A stretch of 64,000 nucleotides of DNA. Origin: Eubacteriales bacterium (lineage in GTDB: Bacteria; Bacillota; Clostridia; Oscillospirales; CAG-272). Positions 15,436 through 34,574 of the stretch are shown piece by piece. Made by a program: the position numbers and the translations under genes. The notes below the pieces were generated by a model. The model saw nothing but the letters and a program-made list of their open reading frames with translations. It did not search any database and was not told where the DNA came from. Numbering within the stretch: the stretch's first letter is position 1; every line of letters starts with the position of its first letter. The stretch is from NCBI GenBank assembly GCA_045629745.1, contig JAZQRU010000042.1, forward strand, positions 100,039-164,038, written 5' to 3'.

Positions 15436-16632
15436 TTAAAATACATCTTTACGCCAAACCATTTTATTTACAACGCCCGTGTAGCTTTGAATTATTTTAA
15501 CGACCTTTGTCGAAACGTTTTCTTCGACGTAATCTGGAACGGGAATGCCGAAATCGCCGTTTTCTGTCATTGAAACGGCAGTATCAACCGCCGTAAGAAG
15601 CGATTTTTCATCAATTCCCGCGAGGATAAAGCACGCCTTATCAAGCGCTTCGGGGCGTTCCGTTGAGGTTCTTATGCAAACCGCCGGAAATGGATTTCCG
15701 ACGCTTGTAAAGAAGCTTGATTCCTCAGGAAGCGTTCCGCTATCCGAAACGACTGCAAATGCGTTCATTTGAAGCTTATTGTAATCGTGGAATCCCATAG
15801 GCTCGTGACGAATTACCCGTGTGTCAAGCTCAAATCCCGATGCATCAAGTCTGTTGCGGCTTCTCGGGTGGCAGGAATAAAGTATCGGCATATTATATTT
15901 TTCCGCCATTTTATTTATAGCGGTAAATAGTGATTTGAAATTCTTTTCCGTGTCAATATTCTCTTCCCTGTGAGCCGATAAAAGTATGTATTTTTTAGGC
16001 TCAAGTTCTAAGCGAGTGAGAATATCGCTCGCCTTGATTTCTTCTAAATTATTATGAAGCACCTCCGCCATAGGCGAGCCTGTTACGTAAGTGCGCTCCT
16101 TGGGAAGTCCGCACTCGTGAAGATAACGGCGCGCGTGCTCCGAATAAGCAAGATTAACGTCGGAGATTATATCAACGATTCTTCTGTTAGTTTCTTCGGG
16201 TAGACATTCATCCTTGCAACGGTTTCCTGCTTCCATATGGAAGATCGGGATGTGCAGTCTCTTTGCGGCGATCGCAGAAAGACAAGAATTAGTGTCACCG
16301 AGAATGAGAAGCGCATCGGGCTTTATTTGGCTCATCAGCTTATAGGAGCAGTTGATGATATTGCCCACCGTTGCGCCGAGATCATCGCCAACCGCATTCA
16401 TATAGACTTCGGGATCGACAAGCTTCAAATCCTTGAAGAATACTCCGTTAAGGTTATAATCGTAGTTCTGCCCCGTGTGAGCTAAAATGCAATCAAAATA
16501 CTGACGGCACTTATTTATTACGGCAGAAAGTCTTATGATTTCAGGGCGCGTGCCAACGATTATAAGAAGCTTTAATTTGCCGTTTTCTTTAAATTTTACA
16601 TCGCTGTAATCGAGTTTTATATTCATTTCCAT
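15436..16632 (-). CDS. fnlC: UDP-N-acetylglucosamine 2-epimerase (non-hydrolysing), FnlC/Cap5G type
   Basis: 398 aa. N-terminal LLIIVGTRPEIIRL epimerase signature. Last gene of a CapE/CapF/CapG-like triad. The TAATG junction gives a 1-nt overlap with the upstream gene. Confidence 0.85.
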   Translation of the reverse strand: MEMNIKLDYSDVKFKENGKLKLLIIVGTRPEIIRLSAVINKCRQYFDCILAHTGQNYDYNLNGVFFKDLKLVDPEVYMNAVGDDLGATVGNIINCSYKLMSQIKPDALLILGDTNSCLSAIAAKRLHIPIFHMEAGNRCKDECLPEETNRRIVDIISDVNLAYSEHARRYLHECGLPKERTYVTGSPMAEVLHNNLEEIKASDILTRLELEPKKYILLSAHREENIDTEKNFKSLFTAINKMAEKYNMPILYSCHPRSRNRLDASGFELDTRVIRHEPMGFHDYNKLQMNAFAVVSDSGTLPEESSFFTSVGNPFPAVCIRTSTERPEALDKACFILAGIDEKSLLTAVDTAVSMTENGDFGIPVPDYVEENVSTKVVKIIQSYTGVVNKMVWRKDVF

Positions 16633-17831
16633 TATTCTACCACCTCATAGAATGTATCGGGATGCTTCGTGTCAAACTGCTCGTTTGCCCACATCACCGT
16701 TACAAGATTATCTGTTTCGGACAGATTGATGATATTGTGCGTATAGCCGGGAAGCATATGAACCGCTTCGATCTTGTCCCCCGAGACCTCAAAGTTCAGC
16801 ACCTCATCCGAGCCGATCTTACGCTGTTGGATCAGTCCGTGACCGGAAACCACAATGAACAGCTCCCATTTGGTGTTATGCCAATGCTGCCCCTTGGTAA
16901 TGCCGGGCTTTGAAATATTAACGCTGAACTGACCGCATTTTTCGGTACGGAGAAGCTCGGTAAAGCTGCCTCTGGCGTCTTCATTCATTTTCAGAGAAAA
17001 TGATACCTTCTCTTTCGGAAGATAGCTGAGATACGTACTGTAAAGTTTCTTTGCGAAGCTGTTATACGGAATTTCGGGCATTACAAGAGTGCTTGTTTGT
17101 GCCTTGAATTGATCAAGCAAGTCCACGATCTCACCAAGTGTAACCTTGTGCGTGGTAGGTACGGCACAGAATTTTCCATCATTCGTAATAAGCGTTCGTA
17201 TTCCGTCAAATTCGCATCTATGCTCTCTTCCGGAAAGAGCCAAAAGCATTTCTTCAACCAAGTCGTCTATGTAAAGAAGTTCGAGTTCTACTTTAGGATC
17301 ATTAACAGTAATAGGCAAGTCGTTTGCAATGTTGTTGCAGAAGGTTGCTACCACCGAATTGTAATTAGGACGGCACCACTTGCCAAACAAGGTCGGGAAA
17401 CGGTAAACAAGTACCTTTGCACCCGTTTCTTCCCCGTATGCAAAGATCAGCTCCTCGCCTGCCTTCTTGGAACGGCCGTAATCGCTGTCATAGCGTCCAA
17501 TGCAGGTTGCCTGGATAGAGGACGAGATCATAACAGGACAAGTATTGCCATGCTTCTTCAAGGTGTCAAGAAGTGTGCTTGCAAATCCGAAATTGCCCGA
17601 CATAAACTCTTCGGGATTTTCGGGGCGATTTACCCCTGCTAAATTGAAAACGAAGTCTGCCCTCTCGCAAGCCTCTTCCAAAAGCTCGTGCGAAGAATCA
17701 AGGTCGTAAAGATATATTTCGTCTATCGTGATTTCGGGATGCGTTCTGTCTTTTCCGTCTTTTACGTTATTTAAAGCGGCGGCGAGGTTTTTACCTACGA
17801 AGCCACGCGCTCCCGTAATAAGTATTTTCAT
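16632..17831 (-). CDS. fnlB: UDP-L-FucNAc pathway reductase/epimerase, FnlB/Cap5F type (SDR plus C-terminal cupin)
   Basis: 399 aa. ITGARGFVG Rossmann motif. C-terminal cupin-like block (GQHWHNTKWELFIVVSG...). Positioned between fnlA-like and fnlC-like genes. Confidence 0.8.
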   Translation of the reverse strand: MKILITGARGFVGKNLAAALNNVKDGKDRTHPEITIDEIYLYDLDSSHELLEEACERADFVFNLAGVNRPENPEEFMSGNFGFASTLLDTLKKHGNTCPVMISSSIQATCIGRYDSDYGRSKKAGEELIFAYGEETGAKVLVYRFPTLFGKWCRPNYNSVVATFCNNIANDLPITVNDPKVELELLYIDDLVEEMLLALSGREHRCEFDGIRTLITNDGKFCAVPTTHKVTLGEIVDLLDQFKAQTSTLVMPEIPYNSFAKKLYSTYLSYLPKEKVSFSLKMNEDARGSFTELLRTEKCGQFSVNISKPGITKGQHWHNTKWELFIVVSGHGLIQQRKIGSDEVLNFEVSGDKIEAVHMLPGYTHNIINLSETDNLVTVMWANEQFDTKHPDTFYEVVE

Positions 17832-17836
17832 ATTTC

Positions 17837-32681: not shown

Positions 32682-32705
32682 AGTAAATTCCTCGGTTGAT
32701 TTTGT

Positions 32706-34574
32706 CTATACGGTTGCGCACTCTTTTTTCTCTGCGCGGGTATCTATTGCGTAGGTTGAAACAAGCTTTTTGACAAGCTCCTTCATTTCGTCGCTTTCCG
32801 CGTGGGCGGCGGCGTAAAGCTCGTCAAGGTGAGCGAAAAGATTTTCTTCGTCGAAGGGGATGGGGCGGGCGACGCTGATAAGGCCATTCGCTGTTTTTTG
32901 AAGGCCCTCTTCTTCCATAAGGCGCTCTTCATATAGCTTTTCACCCGGGCGAAGCCCTGTGCATTTAATTTCGATATCAATATCGGGCTTAAGACCCGAG
33001 AGGATTATAAGATTTCTTGCGAGGTCGTAAATTCTGACGGGCTCACCCATATCGAGAACGAAAATCTGACCGCCCCTGGCGTATGCGCCCGCCTGCAAGA
33101 CGAGGGAAACCGCCTCGGGAATTGTCATGAAATAGCGAATAATATCCTTATGCGTTACGGTGACGGGGCCGCCTTCTGCGATTTGACGCTTGAAAAGCGG
33201 AATAACTGAGCCGTTTGAGCCGAGAACGTTTCCAAAGCGCACGGCAACGAAGTTTGTATTCTTACTGTGCCTGCCTATCGTTTGGATAATCATTTCACAA
33301 ATGCGCTTCGTCGCGCCCATAATGTTCGTCGGATTAACTGCTTTGTCAGTTGAAATCTGAACGAATGTTTCCGCGCCGAACTCGTCTGCCGCGCGAGCGA
33401 CGTTAAGAGTGCCAAAAACGTTATTTTTAACAGCCTCGTTAGGACTCGTTTCCATAAGTGGAACGTGCTTGTGCGCCGCTGCATTGAATACGATATTCGG
33501 GCGGTAATCTTCAAATACTTTTCTTATCTTAAATTCGTCGCGCACACTCGCAATAAGTGTGAGAAGATTTACCTCAGGATAACGGCGCTTAAGCTCCTGC
33601 TCTATATCGTAGGCATTGTTTTCGTAAATATCGAGAATTATCAGAAGCTTCGGGTTATGGCTTGCTATCTGCCGGCAAAGCTCGCTTCCGATAGAGCCGC
33701 CACCACCCGTTACGAGAACCGTTTTATTCTCTATGTAGCCCATTATTTCGTCAAGGTTTACCTTGACTGGCTCTCTTCCGAGTAGGTCCTCTATTTCAAC
33801 ATGGCGAAGCTTTGAAACACTTACCTGACCGTCGGCAAGCTGATAAATACCGGGCAAAACCTTGACGGGAAGTGACGTTTCGTTTGCACGAGCCACAATA
33901 TCTTTCATTATCTGCGAGGGAACCGATGGCATTGCGACAAGGATTTCCTCAACATCGAAAATGTTTGCGTAATGCGAAATGCTGTAGGTATCTCCGACGA
34001 CGCGCACACCCATTATTGAGGTTCCTATCTTTTTAGGGCTATCGTCTATTATACAGACGGGATGGTATTTAATTTTATCAGTGTAAAGCATTTCGCGAAC
34101 CAGGGAGCTTCCTGCATCACCCGCACCGATTATCATAACGCGTTTTCCGCCCTTTGTGTTACGGCGCAAGCTGTTTTTGACGGTTACGTAAATTCGTTTT
34201 GAGAAGCGCATACCGCCCGTGCTTAAAAATACAAACACCGTGAATACCACGACGGCTCTTAAGCCTAGGTCAAAAGTTTTGCCCCACAAAAGCGCAATGA
34301 TAACGTTCACGCACCCAAGCGCCCAGACCGAAAGCGATATACGCATAGCGTCGAGAACGCTTATGTTGGAAAAGGAAAATGAATACATTCCGAAGAGGAG
34401 ATAGAGCGCAAACAAAAAAGCGACATTTAAGAGTGCCCAAAAAAATTGAGGAAGAGACATTTTAAATTCTCCGCCCTGCACCCAAATTGCCAAGAATGCC
34501 GCTAAAAAAACAAAAAGAAAATCGAAAATCGGAATGAATATTCGCTTAGATTTAATGAGTCTTTTGATATTCAT
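32706..34574 (-). CDS. membrane-anchored UDP-GlcNAc 4,6-dehydratase (CapD/PglF/WbpM family)
   Basis: 622 aa. N-terminal TM bundle, two Rossmann regions (MIIGAGDAG; VTGGGGSIGSEL), FNAAAHKHVP block. Confidence 0.85.
   Translation of the reverse strand: MNIKRLIKSKRIFIPIFDFLFVFLAAFLAIWVQGGEFKMSLPQFFWALLNVAFLFALYLLFGMYSFSFSNISVLDAMRISLSVWALGCVNVIIALLWGKTFDLGLRAVVVFTVFVFLSTGGMRFSKRIYVTVKNSLRRNTKGGKRVMIIGAGDAGSSLVREMLYTDKIKYHPVCIIDDSPKKIGTSIMGVRVVGDTYSISHYANIFDVEEILVAMPSVPSQIMKDIVARANETSLPVKVLPGIYQLADGQVSVSKLRHVEIEDLLGREPVKVNLDEIMGYIENKTVLVTGGGGSIGSELCRQIASHNPKLLIILDIYENNAYDIEQELKRRYPEVNLLTLIASVRDEFKIRKVFEDYRPNIVFNAAAHKHVPLMETSPNEAVKNNVFGTLNVARAADEFGAETFVQISTDKAVNPTNIMGATKRICEMIIQTIGRHSKNTNFVAVRFGNVLGSNGSVIPLFKRQIAEGGPVTVTHKDIIRYFMTIPEAVSLVLQAGAYARGGQIFVLDMGEPVRIYDLARNLIILSGLKPDIDIEIKCTGLRPGEKLYEERLMEEEGLQKTANGLISVARPIPFDEENLFAHLDELYAAAHAESDEMKELVKKLVSTYAIDTRAEKKECATV

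What the first reader, a model, noticed from the sequence alone, without database searches (positions are those of the whole stretch)
15436..34574. 19-kb Wzx/Wzy glycan operon whose gene content predicts a zwitterionic polysaccharide (free amino sugar + pyruvate + glycerol phosphate + L-FucNAc)
One promoter (34616-34644) and one terminator (15371-15396) bracket 16 tightly packed minus-strand genes.

The initiation module is a CapD/PglF-like 4,6-dehydratase, a DegT-family aminotransferase and a small PglC/WcfS-like phosphoglycosyltransferase. The operon has no hexapeptide-repeat or GNAT acetyltransferase. The 4-amino group of the 2-acetamido-4-amino-2,4,6-trideoxyhexose may therefore stay free and positively charged.

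Negative charges would come from the pyruvyl transferase (ketal pyruvate) and from TagD + LicD (CDP-glycerol-derived glycerol phosphate). fnlABC adds L-FucNAc or a related 6-deoxy-L-hexosamine.

An aminotransferase plus initiating transferase plus pyruvyl transferase is the same genetic logic as Bacteroides fragilis PSA (wcfR/wcfS/pyruvylated Gal). A free-amine AAT sugar also underlies pneumococcal type 1 capsule. Both are immunomodulatory zwitterionic polysaccharides. Such a locus in a Clostridia-like organism would be worth characterising.
Basis: inference. Interest (0 to 1): 0.65.

Follow-up and report, generated by a model that had tools for sequence, protein, structure and literature searches.

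The report
Clostridial glycan operon predicting zwitterionic polymer
A 19-kb, 16-gene surface-polysaccharide operon of a gut Clostridia-like bacterium that probably makes a polymer carrying both a free amino group and acidic groups; it is a common, already recognised kind of locus, but it holds two iron-sulfur flavoprotein modules whose role in sugar-polymer synthesis I found described in no paper.

Summary
Sixteen minus-strand genes (34574→15436, gaps ≤45 bp, three overlaps) lie between an 11/12 sigma-70-like promoter and a stable hairpin, and the family assignments are right.

The zwitterion reading is partly supported. No N-acyltransferase is in the operon or the 64-kb window. Among 67 related loci that share the same aminotransferase, the initiating transferases split in two. 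One class keeps the PglC "aromatic box" (diNAcBac fingerprint) and usually has a PglD-like or other N-acyl gene in the locus. The window's class has Asp/Met at those positions, a conserved C-terminal tail, and no such neighbour (p = 1.3e-6).

Two details are doubtful. The "TagD" scores below its equivalog cutoff. It is translationally coupled to an FrhB/HCAR-fold Fe-S flavoprotein and to LicD, and that cassette recurs in 7 of 7 independent loci. The pyruvyl transferase is fused to a paralogue of that flavoprotein.

Gene order matches pneumococcal teichoic-acid assembly: amino-sugar transferase, hexose transferase, LicD alditol-phosphate, glycosyltransferases, polymerase.

Genomic prediction of such polymers is established (Neff 2016), and the aminotransferase–transferase pair matched at least 593 stretches in species-representative genomes. 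The locus itself is ordinary; the flavoprotein modules are the open question.

The parts
34616..34644 (-). sigma-70-like promoter TTGACT-17 nt-TATAAT
   Evidence: 11/12 match, best minus-strand site in the region; sequence read
32706..34574 (-). g01: PglF/CapD-type membrane-anchored UDP-GlcNAc 4,6-dehydratase (622 aa)
   Evidence: PF02719 at 398 bits plus PF13727; best PDB hit C. jejuni PglF 5BJU, 304 bits, against 137 bits for inverting dehydratases
31422..32681 (-). g02: DegT-family sugar 4-aminotransferase (419 aa)
   Evidence: PF01041 at 231 bits; best PDB hit PglE, 203 bits; 70-87% identical in 80 loci from several phyla
30710..31402 (-). g03: small monotopic phosphoglycosyl transferase, 'class A' (R117/D118/M122, conserved C-terminal tail)
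   Evidence: PF02397; PglC 197 bits, alignment; class analysis
29879..30706 (-). g04: GT2 glycosyltransferase, conserved partner directly after class A PGTs
   Evidence: PF00535; synteny
29449..29874 (-). g05: TagD/ECT-family cytidylyltransferase, not a TagD equivalog
   Evidence: PF01467; TIGR01518 at 97 bits against cutoff 165; PDB alignments; subfamily alignment
28265..29452 (-). g06: stand-alone FrhB/HCAR-fold flavoprotein with 2x[4Fe-4S] ferredoxin domain; overlaps g05 and g07 by 4 bp
   Evidence: PF04432/PF04422/Fer4; AF2 pLDDT 86.7; Foldseek hits to FrhB-family modules and HCAR 5DQR; conserved cassette in 7/7 loci
27384..28268 (-). g07: LicD-family phosphotransferase
   Evidence: PF04991 at 120 bits; 66-74% identical in cassette loci
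26086..27354 (-). g08: GT-B-fold glycosyltransferase-like protein (422 aa)
   Evidence: weak PF13524; no PDB sequence hit; hhalign 95.4% against the GT4 family and 1.9% against GT2; usually follows LicD
24849..26069 (-). g09: GT4 glycosyltransferase
   Evidence: PF00534/PF13439
23715..24803 (-). g10: EpsG-family (Wzy-like) polymerase
   Evidence: PF14897 at 136 bits
21387..23684 (-). g11: fusion of a polysaccharide pyruvyl transferase (N-terminal half) with a 2x[4Fe-4S] + FrhB-like module (C-terminal half); likely ATG at 23684 (the ORF opens at TTG 23702)
   Evidence: PF04230 at 114 bits plus PF04432/PF04422/Fer4; translation; over 120 full-length fusions listed; C-terminal half 34% identical to g06, E = 1e-71
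20433..21383 (-). g12: GT-A-fold glycosyltransferase-like protein (316 aa, 'LEDD' motif)
   Evidence: no Pfam, NCBIfam or PDB hit; hhalign 85% against the GT2 family over the DxD region, 0.1% against GT4
18894..20411 (-). g13: Wzx flippase
   Evidence: PF01943; NF041503
17837..18889 (-). g14: FnlA/CapE-like UDP-GlcNAc 4,6-dehydratase/5-epimerase
   Evidence: TIGR04130 at 528 bits, best family but below cutoff 730; PF02719 plus PF08485
16632..17831 (-). g15: FnlB/WbjC/CapF-like reductase
   Evidence: NF047837 at 350 bits, below cutoff 500
15436..16632 (-). g16: FnlC/CapG-like non-hydrolysing UDP-GlcNAc 2-epimerase
   Evidence: TIGR00236 at 212.7 bits, above cutoff 210; PF02350
15371..15396 (-). 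intrinsic-terminator-like hairpin with U-run
   Evidence: sequence; -15.2 kcal/mol, z = -6.0, 0 of 200 shuffles as stable

Best explanation
The operon builds a lipid-linked repeat unit that is flipped by Wzx and polymerised by the EpsG-type Wzy. This is shown at the level of protein families.

Initiation: g01 (PglF-type) and g02 convert UDP-GlcNAc into a UDP-2-acetamido-4-amino-2,4,6-trideoxyhexose. This is inferred from close similarity to PglF and PglE. The class A transferase g03 puts this sugar on undecaprenyl phosphate without N-acetylation, so each repeat keeps a protonatable 4-amino group. That step rests on comparative genomics.

Elongation: g04 (GT2) adds the second sugar. g05 (cytidylyltransferase) and g06 (FrhB/HCAR-fold Fe-S flavoprotein, probably ferredoxin-driven) together make a CDP-activated reduced alcohol. 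LicD (g07) transfers its phosphate, giving an anionic phosphodiester. g08, g09 and g12 add further sugars, one of them L-FucNAc or a relative from g14-g16.

The gene order g03, g04, (g05, g06), g07, g08, g09, g10 mirrors pneumococcal teichoic-acid assembly. There the AATGal transferase is followed by a hexose transferase, LicD3 ribitol-phosphate, two glycosyltransferases and a polymerase. The phosphodiester may therefore lie in the main chain.

g11 adds a PEP-derived carboxylate. This is either a pyruvate ketal or, through its fused reductase-like half, a lactyl (1-carboxyethyl) ether.

Predicted net charge per repeat is one positive and about two negative: a zwitterionic, teichoic-acid-like heteropolymer.
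For: - Families and packing.
- PglF 304 bits, PglE 203 bits, PglC 197 bits.
- No LbH, GNAT, FemAB or ATP-grasp gene in the operon or in the 64-kb window.
- In 67 classifiable PGTs next to the same aminotransferase (66 loci plus the window), 28 are class A (D118/M122). Of these, 4 have any acyl-transferase-like hit in the locus, all weak hexapeptide matches; three lie 5-9 kb from the PGT and one (L081) 0.8 kb downstream.
- 39 are class B (Y118/Y122/W150/F154, the published UDP-diNAcBac fingerprint), and 29 of these have one, mostly a PglD-like gene directly after the PGT. Fisher p = 1.3e-6.
- Aminotransferases do not separate by class: 77.7% identity within classes, 77.5% between.
- Seven further loci found through g06 all carry class A PGTs and no acyl-transferase hit.
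- PglF + WcfR + WcfS alone give Und-PP-AATGal in E. coli.
- The CTP-FrhB-LicD cassette is present in 7/7 contexts plus L001, with 4-bp overlaps in the window.
- The g06 model matches FrhB-family modules and HCAR.
- Pneumococcal pathway order.
- Pyruvyl-transferase domain.
- Fusion or adjacency of pyruvyl transferase and FrhB-like genes recurs.
Against: - No chemistry is available.
- The rest of the genome could not be read, so an unlinked N-acyltransferase cannot be excluded.
- The window's PGT keeps GxLLP, W150 and F154 of the diNAcBac fingerprint.
- Orthologous-looking CTP+LicD pairs (56-63% identical) work without FrhB in other loci, so g06 may not feed LicD.
- FnlA and FnlB score below the NCBIfam equivalog cutoffs.
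- No chain-length regulator or LCP ligase is in the window.
Confidence: 0.55

Rival explanations
1. This is a PSA-like capsule in which the free-amine AAT sugar is balanced by a plain 4,6- or 3,4-pyruvate ketal and by pendant sn-glycerol-3-phosphate from CDP-glycerol (TagD + LicD). The two FrhB-like modules are accessory or irrelevant.
For: - PF04230 domain.
- TagD is the best single-domain PDB match (77 bits), and Lys44/Lys46 are conserved.
- LicD family.
- The PSA pathway uses the same dehydratase/aminotransferase/PGT/pyruvyl-transferase logic.
- In L083 and L085 the pyruvyl transferase at the same position is not fused.
Against: - g05 scores 97 bits against the TagD cutoff of 165. It carries H instead of R in the RTEGISTT motif and an insertion absent from B. 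subtilis TagD and from the canonical TagD of L033.
- The FrhB-like gene sits between CTP-transferase and LicD in 7/7 independent loci and is translationally coupled. That placement is hard to call accessory.
- Over 120 full-length pyruvyl-transferase/FrhB fusions were listed among 1,733 matches.
Confidence: 0.2
2. The 4-amino group does not stay free. It is N-acylated by an enzyme encoded outside the window, or modified by an operon enzyme of unrecognised function (for example reductive N-carboxyethylation by g11). The polymer would then be purely anionic.
For: - The same aminotransferase feeds N-acetylated or N-aminoacylated routes in about half of the related loci.
- The window's PGT is 197 bits to the diNAcBac transferase PglC and keeps GxLLP, W150 and F154.
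- The genome outside 64 kb is unread.
Against: - Class A PGTs consistently lack Y118/Y122 and the E117 salt-bridge partner. They have no adjacent PglD-like gene in 28 + 7 loci, apart from one weak hexapeptide hit 0.8 kb downstream in L081.
- N-acyl genes, where present, are tightly linked to the aminotransferase/PGT pair, so an unlinked one would be atypical.
Confidence: 0.2
3. The product is not a capsule. It is a wall-anchored teichoic-acid-type polymer or a glycan for S-layer or protein glycosylation, built by the same chemistry.
For: - No CpsBCD/Wzz-type regulator or LCP gene in the operon or window.
- Gene order is colinear with pneumococcal teichoic-acid synthesis.
- Large lipoprotein or surface-protein genes flank the operon.
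Against: Nothing in the sequence discriminates the final acceptor. Ligases are often encoded elsewhere.
Confidence: 0.35

Closest known systems
Streptococcus pneumoniae / S. oralis teichoic acid (type IV LTA/WTA) pathway: Spr_0092/Spr_1654 (AATGal synthesis), Spr_1655 (PGT), Spr_0091 (hexose GT), TarI/TarJ (CDP-ribitol), LicD3, Spr_1223/1224, TarP, TacF
   Same: A free-amine trideoxyhexosamine is the first sugar, followed by one hexose. A LicD-family enzyme then inserts an alcohol phosphate made by a cytidylyltransferase plus a reductase. Two glycosyltransferases, a Wzy-like polymerase and a Wzx-like flippase follow. The gene order g03-g04-(g05, g06)-g07-g08-g09-g10 is colinear with the biochemical order. 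The product is zwitterionic.
   Different: The cytidylyltransferase is TagD/ECT-family, not IspD-like TarI (own knowledge). The reductase is an FrhB/HCAR-fold Fe-S flavoprotein, not a zinc alcohol dehydrogenase like TarJ (own knowledge). There are no licABC or phosphocholine genes. The operon adds a pyruvyl-transferase fusion and fnlABC. Sequence relatedness of g03, g07, g08 and g09 to the pneumococcal proteins was not tested.
Bacteroides fragilis capsular polysaccharide A locus (UngD2/PglF, WcfR, WcfS, WcfQ, WcfO...) and the wcfR-based genomic screen for AATGal zwitterionic polysaccharides (Neff et al. 2016)
   Same: Both have the dehydratase, aminotransferase and small PGT without an acetyltransferase; a PEP-dependent pyruvyl transferase; and Wzx/Wzy.
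   Different: The dehydratase is inside the operon here. There is no UpxY/UpxZ. The pyruvyl transferase is fused to an FrhB-like module. The operon adds a phosphodiester module and L-FucNAc genes. Orthology to WcfR/WcfS and the galacto configuration are untested.
Campylobacter Pgl pathway for UDP-diNAcBac (PglF, PglE, PglD, PglC)
   Same: These are the best solved-structure relatives of g01, g02 and g03 (304, 203 and 197 bits).
   Different: There is no PglD. The PGT lacks Tyr118, Tyr122 and Glu117 of the aromatic-box fingerprint. The repeat is polymerised rather than transferred to protein.
FnlABC / CapEFG (UDP-L-FucNAc synthesis in P. aeruginosa O11 and S. aureus types 5/8)
   Same: Three adjacent genes occur in the order dehydratase/5-epimerase, reductase, 2-epimerase, each with the corresponding model as its best family.
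   Different: FnlA and FnlB score below the equivalog cutoffs. The final sugar could be L-FucNAc, L-PneNAc or a relative.
Klebsiella K22/K37 and K66 capsule loci (pyruvyl transferase next to a 'nitroreductase' or a 'coenzyme F420 hydrogenase')
   Same: A pyruvyl transferase is paired with a flavin-type reductase gene unique to those types. K22 is reported to carry 4-O-[(S)-1-carboxyethyl]-GlcA, a lactyl ether rather than a ketal (title cited).
   Different: The Klebsiella genes are separate rather than fused, and the K22/K37 reductase belongs to a different family. The K66 structure was not verified here. No sequence comparison was possible.

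Membership tests
AATGal-type zwitterionic polysaccharide locus (wcfR/wcfS-based definition) | DegT-family 4-aminotransferase adjacent to a small initiating phosphoglycosyl transferase | tested here: met
   g02 and g03 are 19 bp apart. The adjacency is near-universal in 80 related loci.
AATGal-type zwitterionic polysaccharide locus (wcfR/wcfS-based definition) | Orthology of the aminotransferase/PGT to WcfR/WcfS, with an axial (galacto) 4-amine | not testable with these tools
   No WcfR or WcfS sequence was obtainable. S. sonnei WbgX/WbgY were not within E = 1e-30 / 1e-33. The shared aminotransferase also serves loci with the diNAcBac fingerprint, which hints at the gluco isomer.
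AATGal-type zwitterionic polysaccharide locus (wcfR/wcfS-based definition) | No N-acyltransferase acting on the 4-amine | tested here: met
   None in the 16 proteins and none in the 64-kb window. The rest of the genome was not readable.
AATGal-type zwitterionic polysaccharide locus (wcfR/wcfS-based definition) | A gene for an anionic group in the same locus | tested here: met
   PF04230 pyruvyl-transferase domain and a CTP-transferase/LicD pair.
AATGal-type zwitterionic polysaccharide locus (wcfR/wcfS-based definition) | Polymer shown chemically to carry alternating charges | not testable with these tools
   Requires purification and NMR/MS.
UDP-diNAcBac-specific small PGT (PglC cluster) | Aromatic box Y118, Y122, W150, F154, F197 plus GLLLP loop (PMC10186338) | tested here: not met
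   The window has D118, M122 and R117. W150, F154 and GNLLP are kept, and the C-terminus is replaced by a different conserved tail.
UDP-diNAcBac pathway | PglD-type N-acetyltransferase | tested here: not met
   tblastn with three PglD-like seeds found nothing in the window.
Glycerol-3-phosphate cytidylyltransferase TagD (TIGR01518 equivalog) | Score above the curated cutoff | tested here: not met
   97.1 bits against 165.4.
Glycerol-3-phosphate cytidylyltransferase TagD (TIGR01518 equivalog) | HxGH, Lys44/Lys46 and RTEGISTT motifs | tested here: inconclusive
   HIGH and K44/K46 are conserved. The third motif reads HTDGTSST (R to H), and there is a 6-residue insertion relative to B. subtilis TagD and the L033 TagD.
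Polysaccharide pyruvyl transferase (PF04230) | Domain above the gathering score | tested here: met
   113.7 bits against 25.3, residues 20-314 of g11.
FrhB/FdhB/HCAR family Fe-S flavoproteins | FrhB_FdhB_N/C domains, ferredoxin-type clusters and the family fold | tested here: met
   PF04432 and PF04422. Conserved Cys motifs. AF2 pLDDT 86.7. Foldseek E = 3e-15 to 1e-8 to FrhB-family subunits, Fsr and HCAR. Cofactor content and electron donor are untested.
FnlABC (UDP-L-FucNAc) | Three equivalog models above cutoff | tested here: inconclusive
   FnlA 528 against 730; reductase 350 against 500; WecB-type epimerase 212.7 against 210. Each is the best family, and the genes are in canonical order.
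Wzx/Wzy-dependent pathway | Flippase, polymerase and polyprenyl-phosphate PGT in one locus | tested here: met
   PF01943, PF14897 and PF02397. No chain-length regulator was found in the window.

The most novel reading that the evidence does not exclude
The two FrhB/HCAR-fold modules are a so far undescribed class of (probably ferredoxin-dependent) reductases for glycan tailoring in anaerobes.

The half fused to the pyruvyl transferase would reduce the enolpyruvyl ether intermediate to a lactyl (1-carboxyethyl) ether. That is a MurA/MurB-like two-step reaction in one protein. It could explain the lactyl-ether sugars I recall being reported from Butyrivibrio (not checked here), and it would parallel the pyruvyl-transferase + reductase pairs of Klebsiella K22/K37/K66.

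The stand-alone paralogue, locked between a cytidylyltransferase and LicD, would make the CDP-alcohol. This could be a CDP-alditol from a CDP-ketose, or a phospholactyl group from CDP-activated PEP, as in dehydro-F420 reduction.

The conserved cassette would then define a widespread pneumococcal-type, zwitterionic teichoic-acid-like polymer family in gut Clostridia.
Probability: 0.3. Interest if true: 0.7.

Novelty: new variant of a known kind. Interest (0 to 1): 0.42.

Why it matters
Zwitterionic polysaccharides (B. fragilis PSA, pneumococcal Sp1 and teichoic acid) are the classic T-cell-active bacterial glycans. Knowing which gut Clostridia can make them helps in choosing strains for immunology.

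This work gives a usable sequence rule. Class A transferases (Asp118/Met122 plus the C-terminal tail) can be separated from class B transferases (Tyr118/Tyr122 plus a PglD-like neighbour). That splits free-amine loci from N-acetylated ones, even though both share one aminotransferase. A screen based on wcfR or the aminotransferase alone would conflate the two.

It also flags a conserved cassette, cytidylyltransferase–FrhB-like–LicD, and a common pyruvyl-transferase–FrhB fusion. I found no paper describing the chemistry of either. If they are reductases for alditol-phosphate or lactyl-ether formation, a long-standing gap in the genetics of glycan tailoring would become testable.

Tried and rejected
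The closest locus is L001 from MAG GCA_052828825.1, at 84-98% amino-acid identity.
- I tried to anchor the aminotransferase and PGT to true AATGal enzymes:
  - S. sonnei WbgX/WbgY on plasmids were too distant to appear.
  - Neff 2016 is not held.
  - The SmPGT paper has no supplement held, so there are no WcfS or other reference sequences.
  - Bacteroidales plasmid-like records carry ATP-grasp-type loci, not PSA-like ones.
- I tested whether g08 is a cryptic second pyruvyl transferase for g06. There is no similarity, and it is GT4-like.
- I considered g06 as the trans partner of a pyruvyl transferase. That holds for other FrhB-like genes in L007 and L036. The g06 orthologue group, however, is tied to CTP-transferase/LicD, with or without a pyruvyl transferase nearby.
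- The extra Fe-ADH of L001 is not a glycerol-1-phosphate dehydrogenase.
- Literature searches for FrhB/F420-type proteins in polysaccharide pyruvylation or with LicD found nothing beyond the Klebsiella gene table. The K66 structure could not be verified.
- Rfam found no RNA element in the window.

Full report
**1. What is there**

Between 34574 and 15436, sixteen ORFs lie on the minus strand. Intergenic distances run from -4 to 45 bp, with three overlaps.

Upstream, TTGACT-17-TATAAT (34644-34616) is the best minus-strand promoter-like site in the region, at 11/12. Such sites are common in this AT-rich DNA (74 found, 47 expected), so a single transcript is inferred from packing rather than shown.

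Downstream, the hairpin at 15396-15371 folds at -15.2 kcal/mol (z = -6.0) and is followed by Us. A second hairpin at 15329-15303 (-19.4 kcal/mol) terminates the convergent gene.

G+C drops to 35-38% between 20 and 30 kb, against 42-48% at both ends of the operon. This is the usual picture of a variable middle between conserved modules.

**2. Gene content**

- PglF/CapD-type dehydratase; the best solved relative is C. jejuni PglF at 304 bits, against 137 bits for inverting dehydratases
- DegT aminotransferase (PglE, 203 bits)
- 230-aa Bac_transf PGT (PglC, 197 bits)
- GT2, a 141-aa cytidylyltransferase, LicD and GT4
- EpsG-type polymerase and Wzx
- PS_pyruv_trans
- an FnlA/FnlB/WecB-like trio

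Two proteins had no usable hit in Pfam, NCBIfam or PDB. Profile-profile comparison with families built from related loci resolves both:
- g12 is GT-A-like: 85% probability against the GT2 family across the DxD region, 0.1% against GT4.
- g08 is GT-B-like: 95% against the GT4 family, 1.9% against GT2.

No hexapeptide, GNAT, FemAB, ATP-grasp or acyltransferase-3 domain is present in the operon.

- g06 (28265-29452) is a 395-aa protein with two [4Fe-4S] ferredoxin motifs and FrhB_FdhB domains.
- The 'pyruvyl transferase' g11 is a 765-aa fusion. Its C-terminal half is a full-length paralogue of g06 (34% identity, E = 1e-71).

**3. Is the amine left free?**

The rest of the genome is not available, but two tests were possible.

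*Test 1, the window.* Eight N-acyl-transfer seeds taken from related loci found nothing in the 64-kb window by tblastn. The seeds were three PglD-like, one GNAT, two hexapeptide, one FemAB-like and one ATP-grasp. Pfam scans of the other window genes found only PlsC-type lipid acyltransferases.

The best 80 loci are 70-87% identical. They come from Clostridia, Erysipelotrichaceae, Bacteroidaceae, Prevotella, Coriobacteriaceae and spirochaetes. The PGT almost always follows the aminotransferase directly.

I aligned these PGTs to C. concisus PglC (numbering from the 8G1N alignment). I then read the published UDP-diNAcBac fingerprint: the aromatic box Y118/Y122/W150/F154/F197 plus GLLLP (PMC10186338). 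This splits them cleanly:
- Class B (39 loci) has Y118, Y122, W150 and F154, is about 210 aa long, and ends in ...EGISSETSATMEEF.G.
- Class A (27 loci plus the window) has R117, D118 and M122, keeps W150/F154 and GxLLP, and is about 231 aa long. It ends in a different conserved tail: ...REGTVSD.DFGDWLL..G.V....Y..KQ.EAKELL.V.

An acyl-transferase-like gene occurs somewhere in the locus in 29 of 39 class B cases. It is mostly a PglD-like gene directly after the PGT. In the others a GNAT, hexapeptide, FemAB-like or ATP-grasp gene lies between the aminotransferase and the PGT. Only 4 of 28 class A cases have such a hit. All four are weak generic hexapeptide matches; three lie 5-9 kb from the PGT, and the fourth (L081) lies about 0.8 kb downstream. 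Fisher p = 1.3e-6.

The aminotransferases do not sort by class: mean identity is 77.7% within classes and 77.5% between. The window's enzyme is 87% identical to its best class A neighbour and 85% to its best class B neighbour.

So one aminotransferase product feeds two routes, and the transferase class decides between them. The window has the route without N-acylation. It remains an inference, because no class A enzyme has been assayed and WcfS was not available for comparison.

The configuration is open. The class B fingerprint and the PglD-type partners suggest the gluco isomer (mono-N-acetyl-bacillosamine). Known free-amine polymers use the galacto isomer. FucNAc4N-specific PGTs also accept UDP-Bac to a lesser extent.

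**4. The acidic groups**

*The cytidylyltransferase.* g05 is not a TagD equivalog (97 bits against a cutoff of 165). It keeps HxGH and Lys44/Lys46. However, it reads HTDGTSST where TagD has RTEGISTT, and it carries an insertion absent from B. subtilis TagD and from the canonical TagD of locus L033.

*The cassette.* g05, g06 and g07 overlap by 4 bp each. I looked up seven g06 homologues at 47-65% identity, from unrelated assemblies. All seven sit in the same cassette: (DegT)-Bac_transf-GT2-CTP_transf_like-FrhB-like-LicD. This is most often followed by a g08-like and a g09-like glycosyltransferase. All seven PGTs are class A. The near-identical locus L001 has the same cassette.

*The fold.* The AlphaFold model of g06 (pLDDT 86.7) matches FrhB-family subunits, the N-terminal half of Fsr, and Arabidopsis 7-hydroxymethyl-chlorophyll a reductase. 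From my own knowledge, HCAR is a ferredoxin-dependent member from an organism without F420.

*What the module may do.* Canonical CDP-glycerol synthesis needs no reductase. Established alditol-phosphate routes do pair a cytidylyltransferase with a reductase and a LicD-family transferase. Examples are TarI/TarJ/LicD3 in pneumococcal teichoic acid and pneumococcal CDP-arabinitol and CDP-2-glycerol (own knowledge).

In pneumococcus the biochemical order is AATGal transferase, hexose transferase, LicD3 ribitol-phosphate, two glycosyltransferases, polymerase. The window's order g03, g04, (g05, g06), g07, g08, g09, g10 is colinear with it. I therefore read the 5' two-thirds of the operon as a teichoic-acid-like module. 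In it, LicD installs a phosphodiester-linked reduced alcohol, possibly in the main chain.

*Caveat.* CTP/LicD pairs at 56-63% identity occur without FrhB in other loci. Four of these have an uncharacterised 276-aa protein in that slot.

Whatever the alcohol is, the phosphodiester is anionic. Phosphoethanolamine or phosphocholine, which would cancel the charge, would not need a reductase.

**5. The pyruvyl transferase fusion**

The search found 1,733 matches at E ≤ 1e-10. The 120 listed are almost all full-length fusions of about 720-810 aa, and the few that carry names are from Lachnospiraceae and Eubacterium. In L007 and L036, separate pyruvyl-transferase and FrhB-like genes are adjacent. In L083 and L085, the transferase at the same operon position is unfused.

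No paper in the library links FrhB-type proteins to pyruvylation. One gene table is suggestive (PMC4616057 supplement):
- Klebsiella K22 and K37 alone carry a pyruvyl transferase plus a 'nitroreductase'.
- K66 alone carries a pyruvyl transferase plus a 'coenzyme F420 hydrogenase'.

K22 is reported to contain 4-O-[(S)-1-carboxyethyl]-GlcA, a lactyl ether and not a ketal (title cited). Lactyl ethers also occur in E. coli O58, O69, O124, O146 and O150.

A reductase acting on the enolpyruvyl ether intermediate (MurA/MurB logic) would explain the fusion. This is a hypothesis. Either way the group is a carboxylate.

**6. Comparison with what is known, and novelty**

Predicting zwitterionic polysaccharides from an aminotransferase next to an initiating transferase is published. 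That work found hundreds of genomes in diverse orders. PglF+WcfR+WcfS are sufficient for Und-PP-AATGal. The initiation module of this window is among the most widespread glycan cassettes of gut anaerobes. As a 'zwitterionic polysaccharide locus in Clostridia' the finding is therefore a further member of a known kind.

What is not described, as far as I could search, is:
- the class A / class B split of the transferases behind one aminotransferase;
- the conserved CTP-FrhB-LicD cassette;
- the role of the FrhB-like half of the pyruvyl transferase.

These make the locus a variant worth a biochemist's attention, but not a surprise at the level of the system.

**7. Verdict**

The predicted charges are one free amine, one phosphodiester and one carboxylate per repeat. 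I put about 0.55 confidence on the whole picture. Confidence is higher for the pathway type and lower for the identity of each substituent.

Noticed in passing
window 28265-29452 and 21387-22553 (minus): Two paralogous FrhB/HCAR-fold 2x[4Fe-4S] flavoprotein modules sit inside a polysaccharide operon. One is stand-alone between the cytidylyltransferase and LicD; the other is fused to the pyruvyl transferase.
   Followed up: yes
L082-L085, L088-L090 (and L001 111-2601): The cassette DegT - Bac_transf - GT2 - CTP_transf_like - FrhB-like - LicD is conserved in 7/7 unrelated assemblies. CTP-transferase (69-77%) and LicD (66-74%) are more conserved than the FrhB-like protein (47-65%).
   Followed up: yes
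L002-L081, PGT genes directly downstream of the aminotransferase: The same aminotransferase (70-87% identical across Firmicutes, Bacteroidota, Actinomycetota and spirochaete MAGs) is followed by one of two PGT classes. They are distinguishable at PglC positions 117/118/122 and by their C-terminal tails. This looks like a horizontally shared module with a switchable second step.
   Followed up: yes
L001 14539-15639: The closest relative of the operon (84-98% amino-acid identity) has an extra Fe-dependent alcohol dehydrogenase gene after fnlC, which the window lacks. Its best NCBIfam hits (ErcA, the phosphonate-pathway Fe-ADH PsrA, lactaldehyde reductase) are all below cutoff.
   Followed up: partly
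L009 13279-14124, L026 13209-14039, L028 8531-9364, L030 13207-14037: In loci whose CTP-transferase/LicD pair lacks the FrhB-like gene, the same slot holds a conserved ~276-aa protein with no Pfam hit. Its only match is a faint one to the oligosaccharide deacetylase HfsH.
   Followed up: partly
window 5484-13097 and 13230-15290 (plus): Two paralogous predicted lipoproteins (2537 and 686 aa, 34% identical over the short one) have internal repeats and no Pfam domain. They converge on the operon's 3' end, and the same pair flanks L001.
   Followed up: partly
window 54295-62205 (minus): Four tandem genes encode 615-682-aa predicted lipoproteins (lipobox-like N-termini) with no Pfam hit and only weak mutual similarity.
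   Followed up: partly
window 36223-38403 (minus): Two tandem GxDLY + SGNH/GDSL esterase genes and a LURP-one-related gene (35736-36239) lie just upstream of the operon's promoter region. They could be glycan O-acetyl esterases.
   Followed up: no
window 20000-30000: G+C falls to 35-38% in the middle of the operon (LicD to GT-A-like gene), against 42-48% in the initiation and fnl modules and the flanks. This suggests a mosaic origin.
   Followed up: no
window 38518-39836: rsmG (GidB) and a ParB-HTH gene lie next to the locus, so the operon may sit near the chromosomal origin region.
   Followed up: no
plasmid NZ_CP110290.1 44932-46755 (Enterococcus faecalis): A 77-kb E. faecalis plasmid carries an aminotransferase 75% identical and a PGT 61% identical to the window's pair, so the initiation module is also plasmid-borne.
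   Followed up: no
L081 12808-13161 (Clostridium cadaveris JCM 1392): This is the only class A locus with a hexapeptide-repeat gene close (about 0.8 kb) downstream of the PGT. It could be an O-acetyltransferase or an exception to the rule.
   Followed up: no
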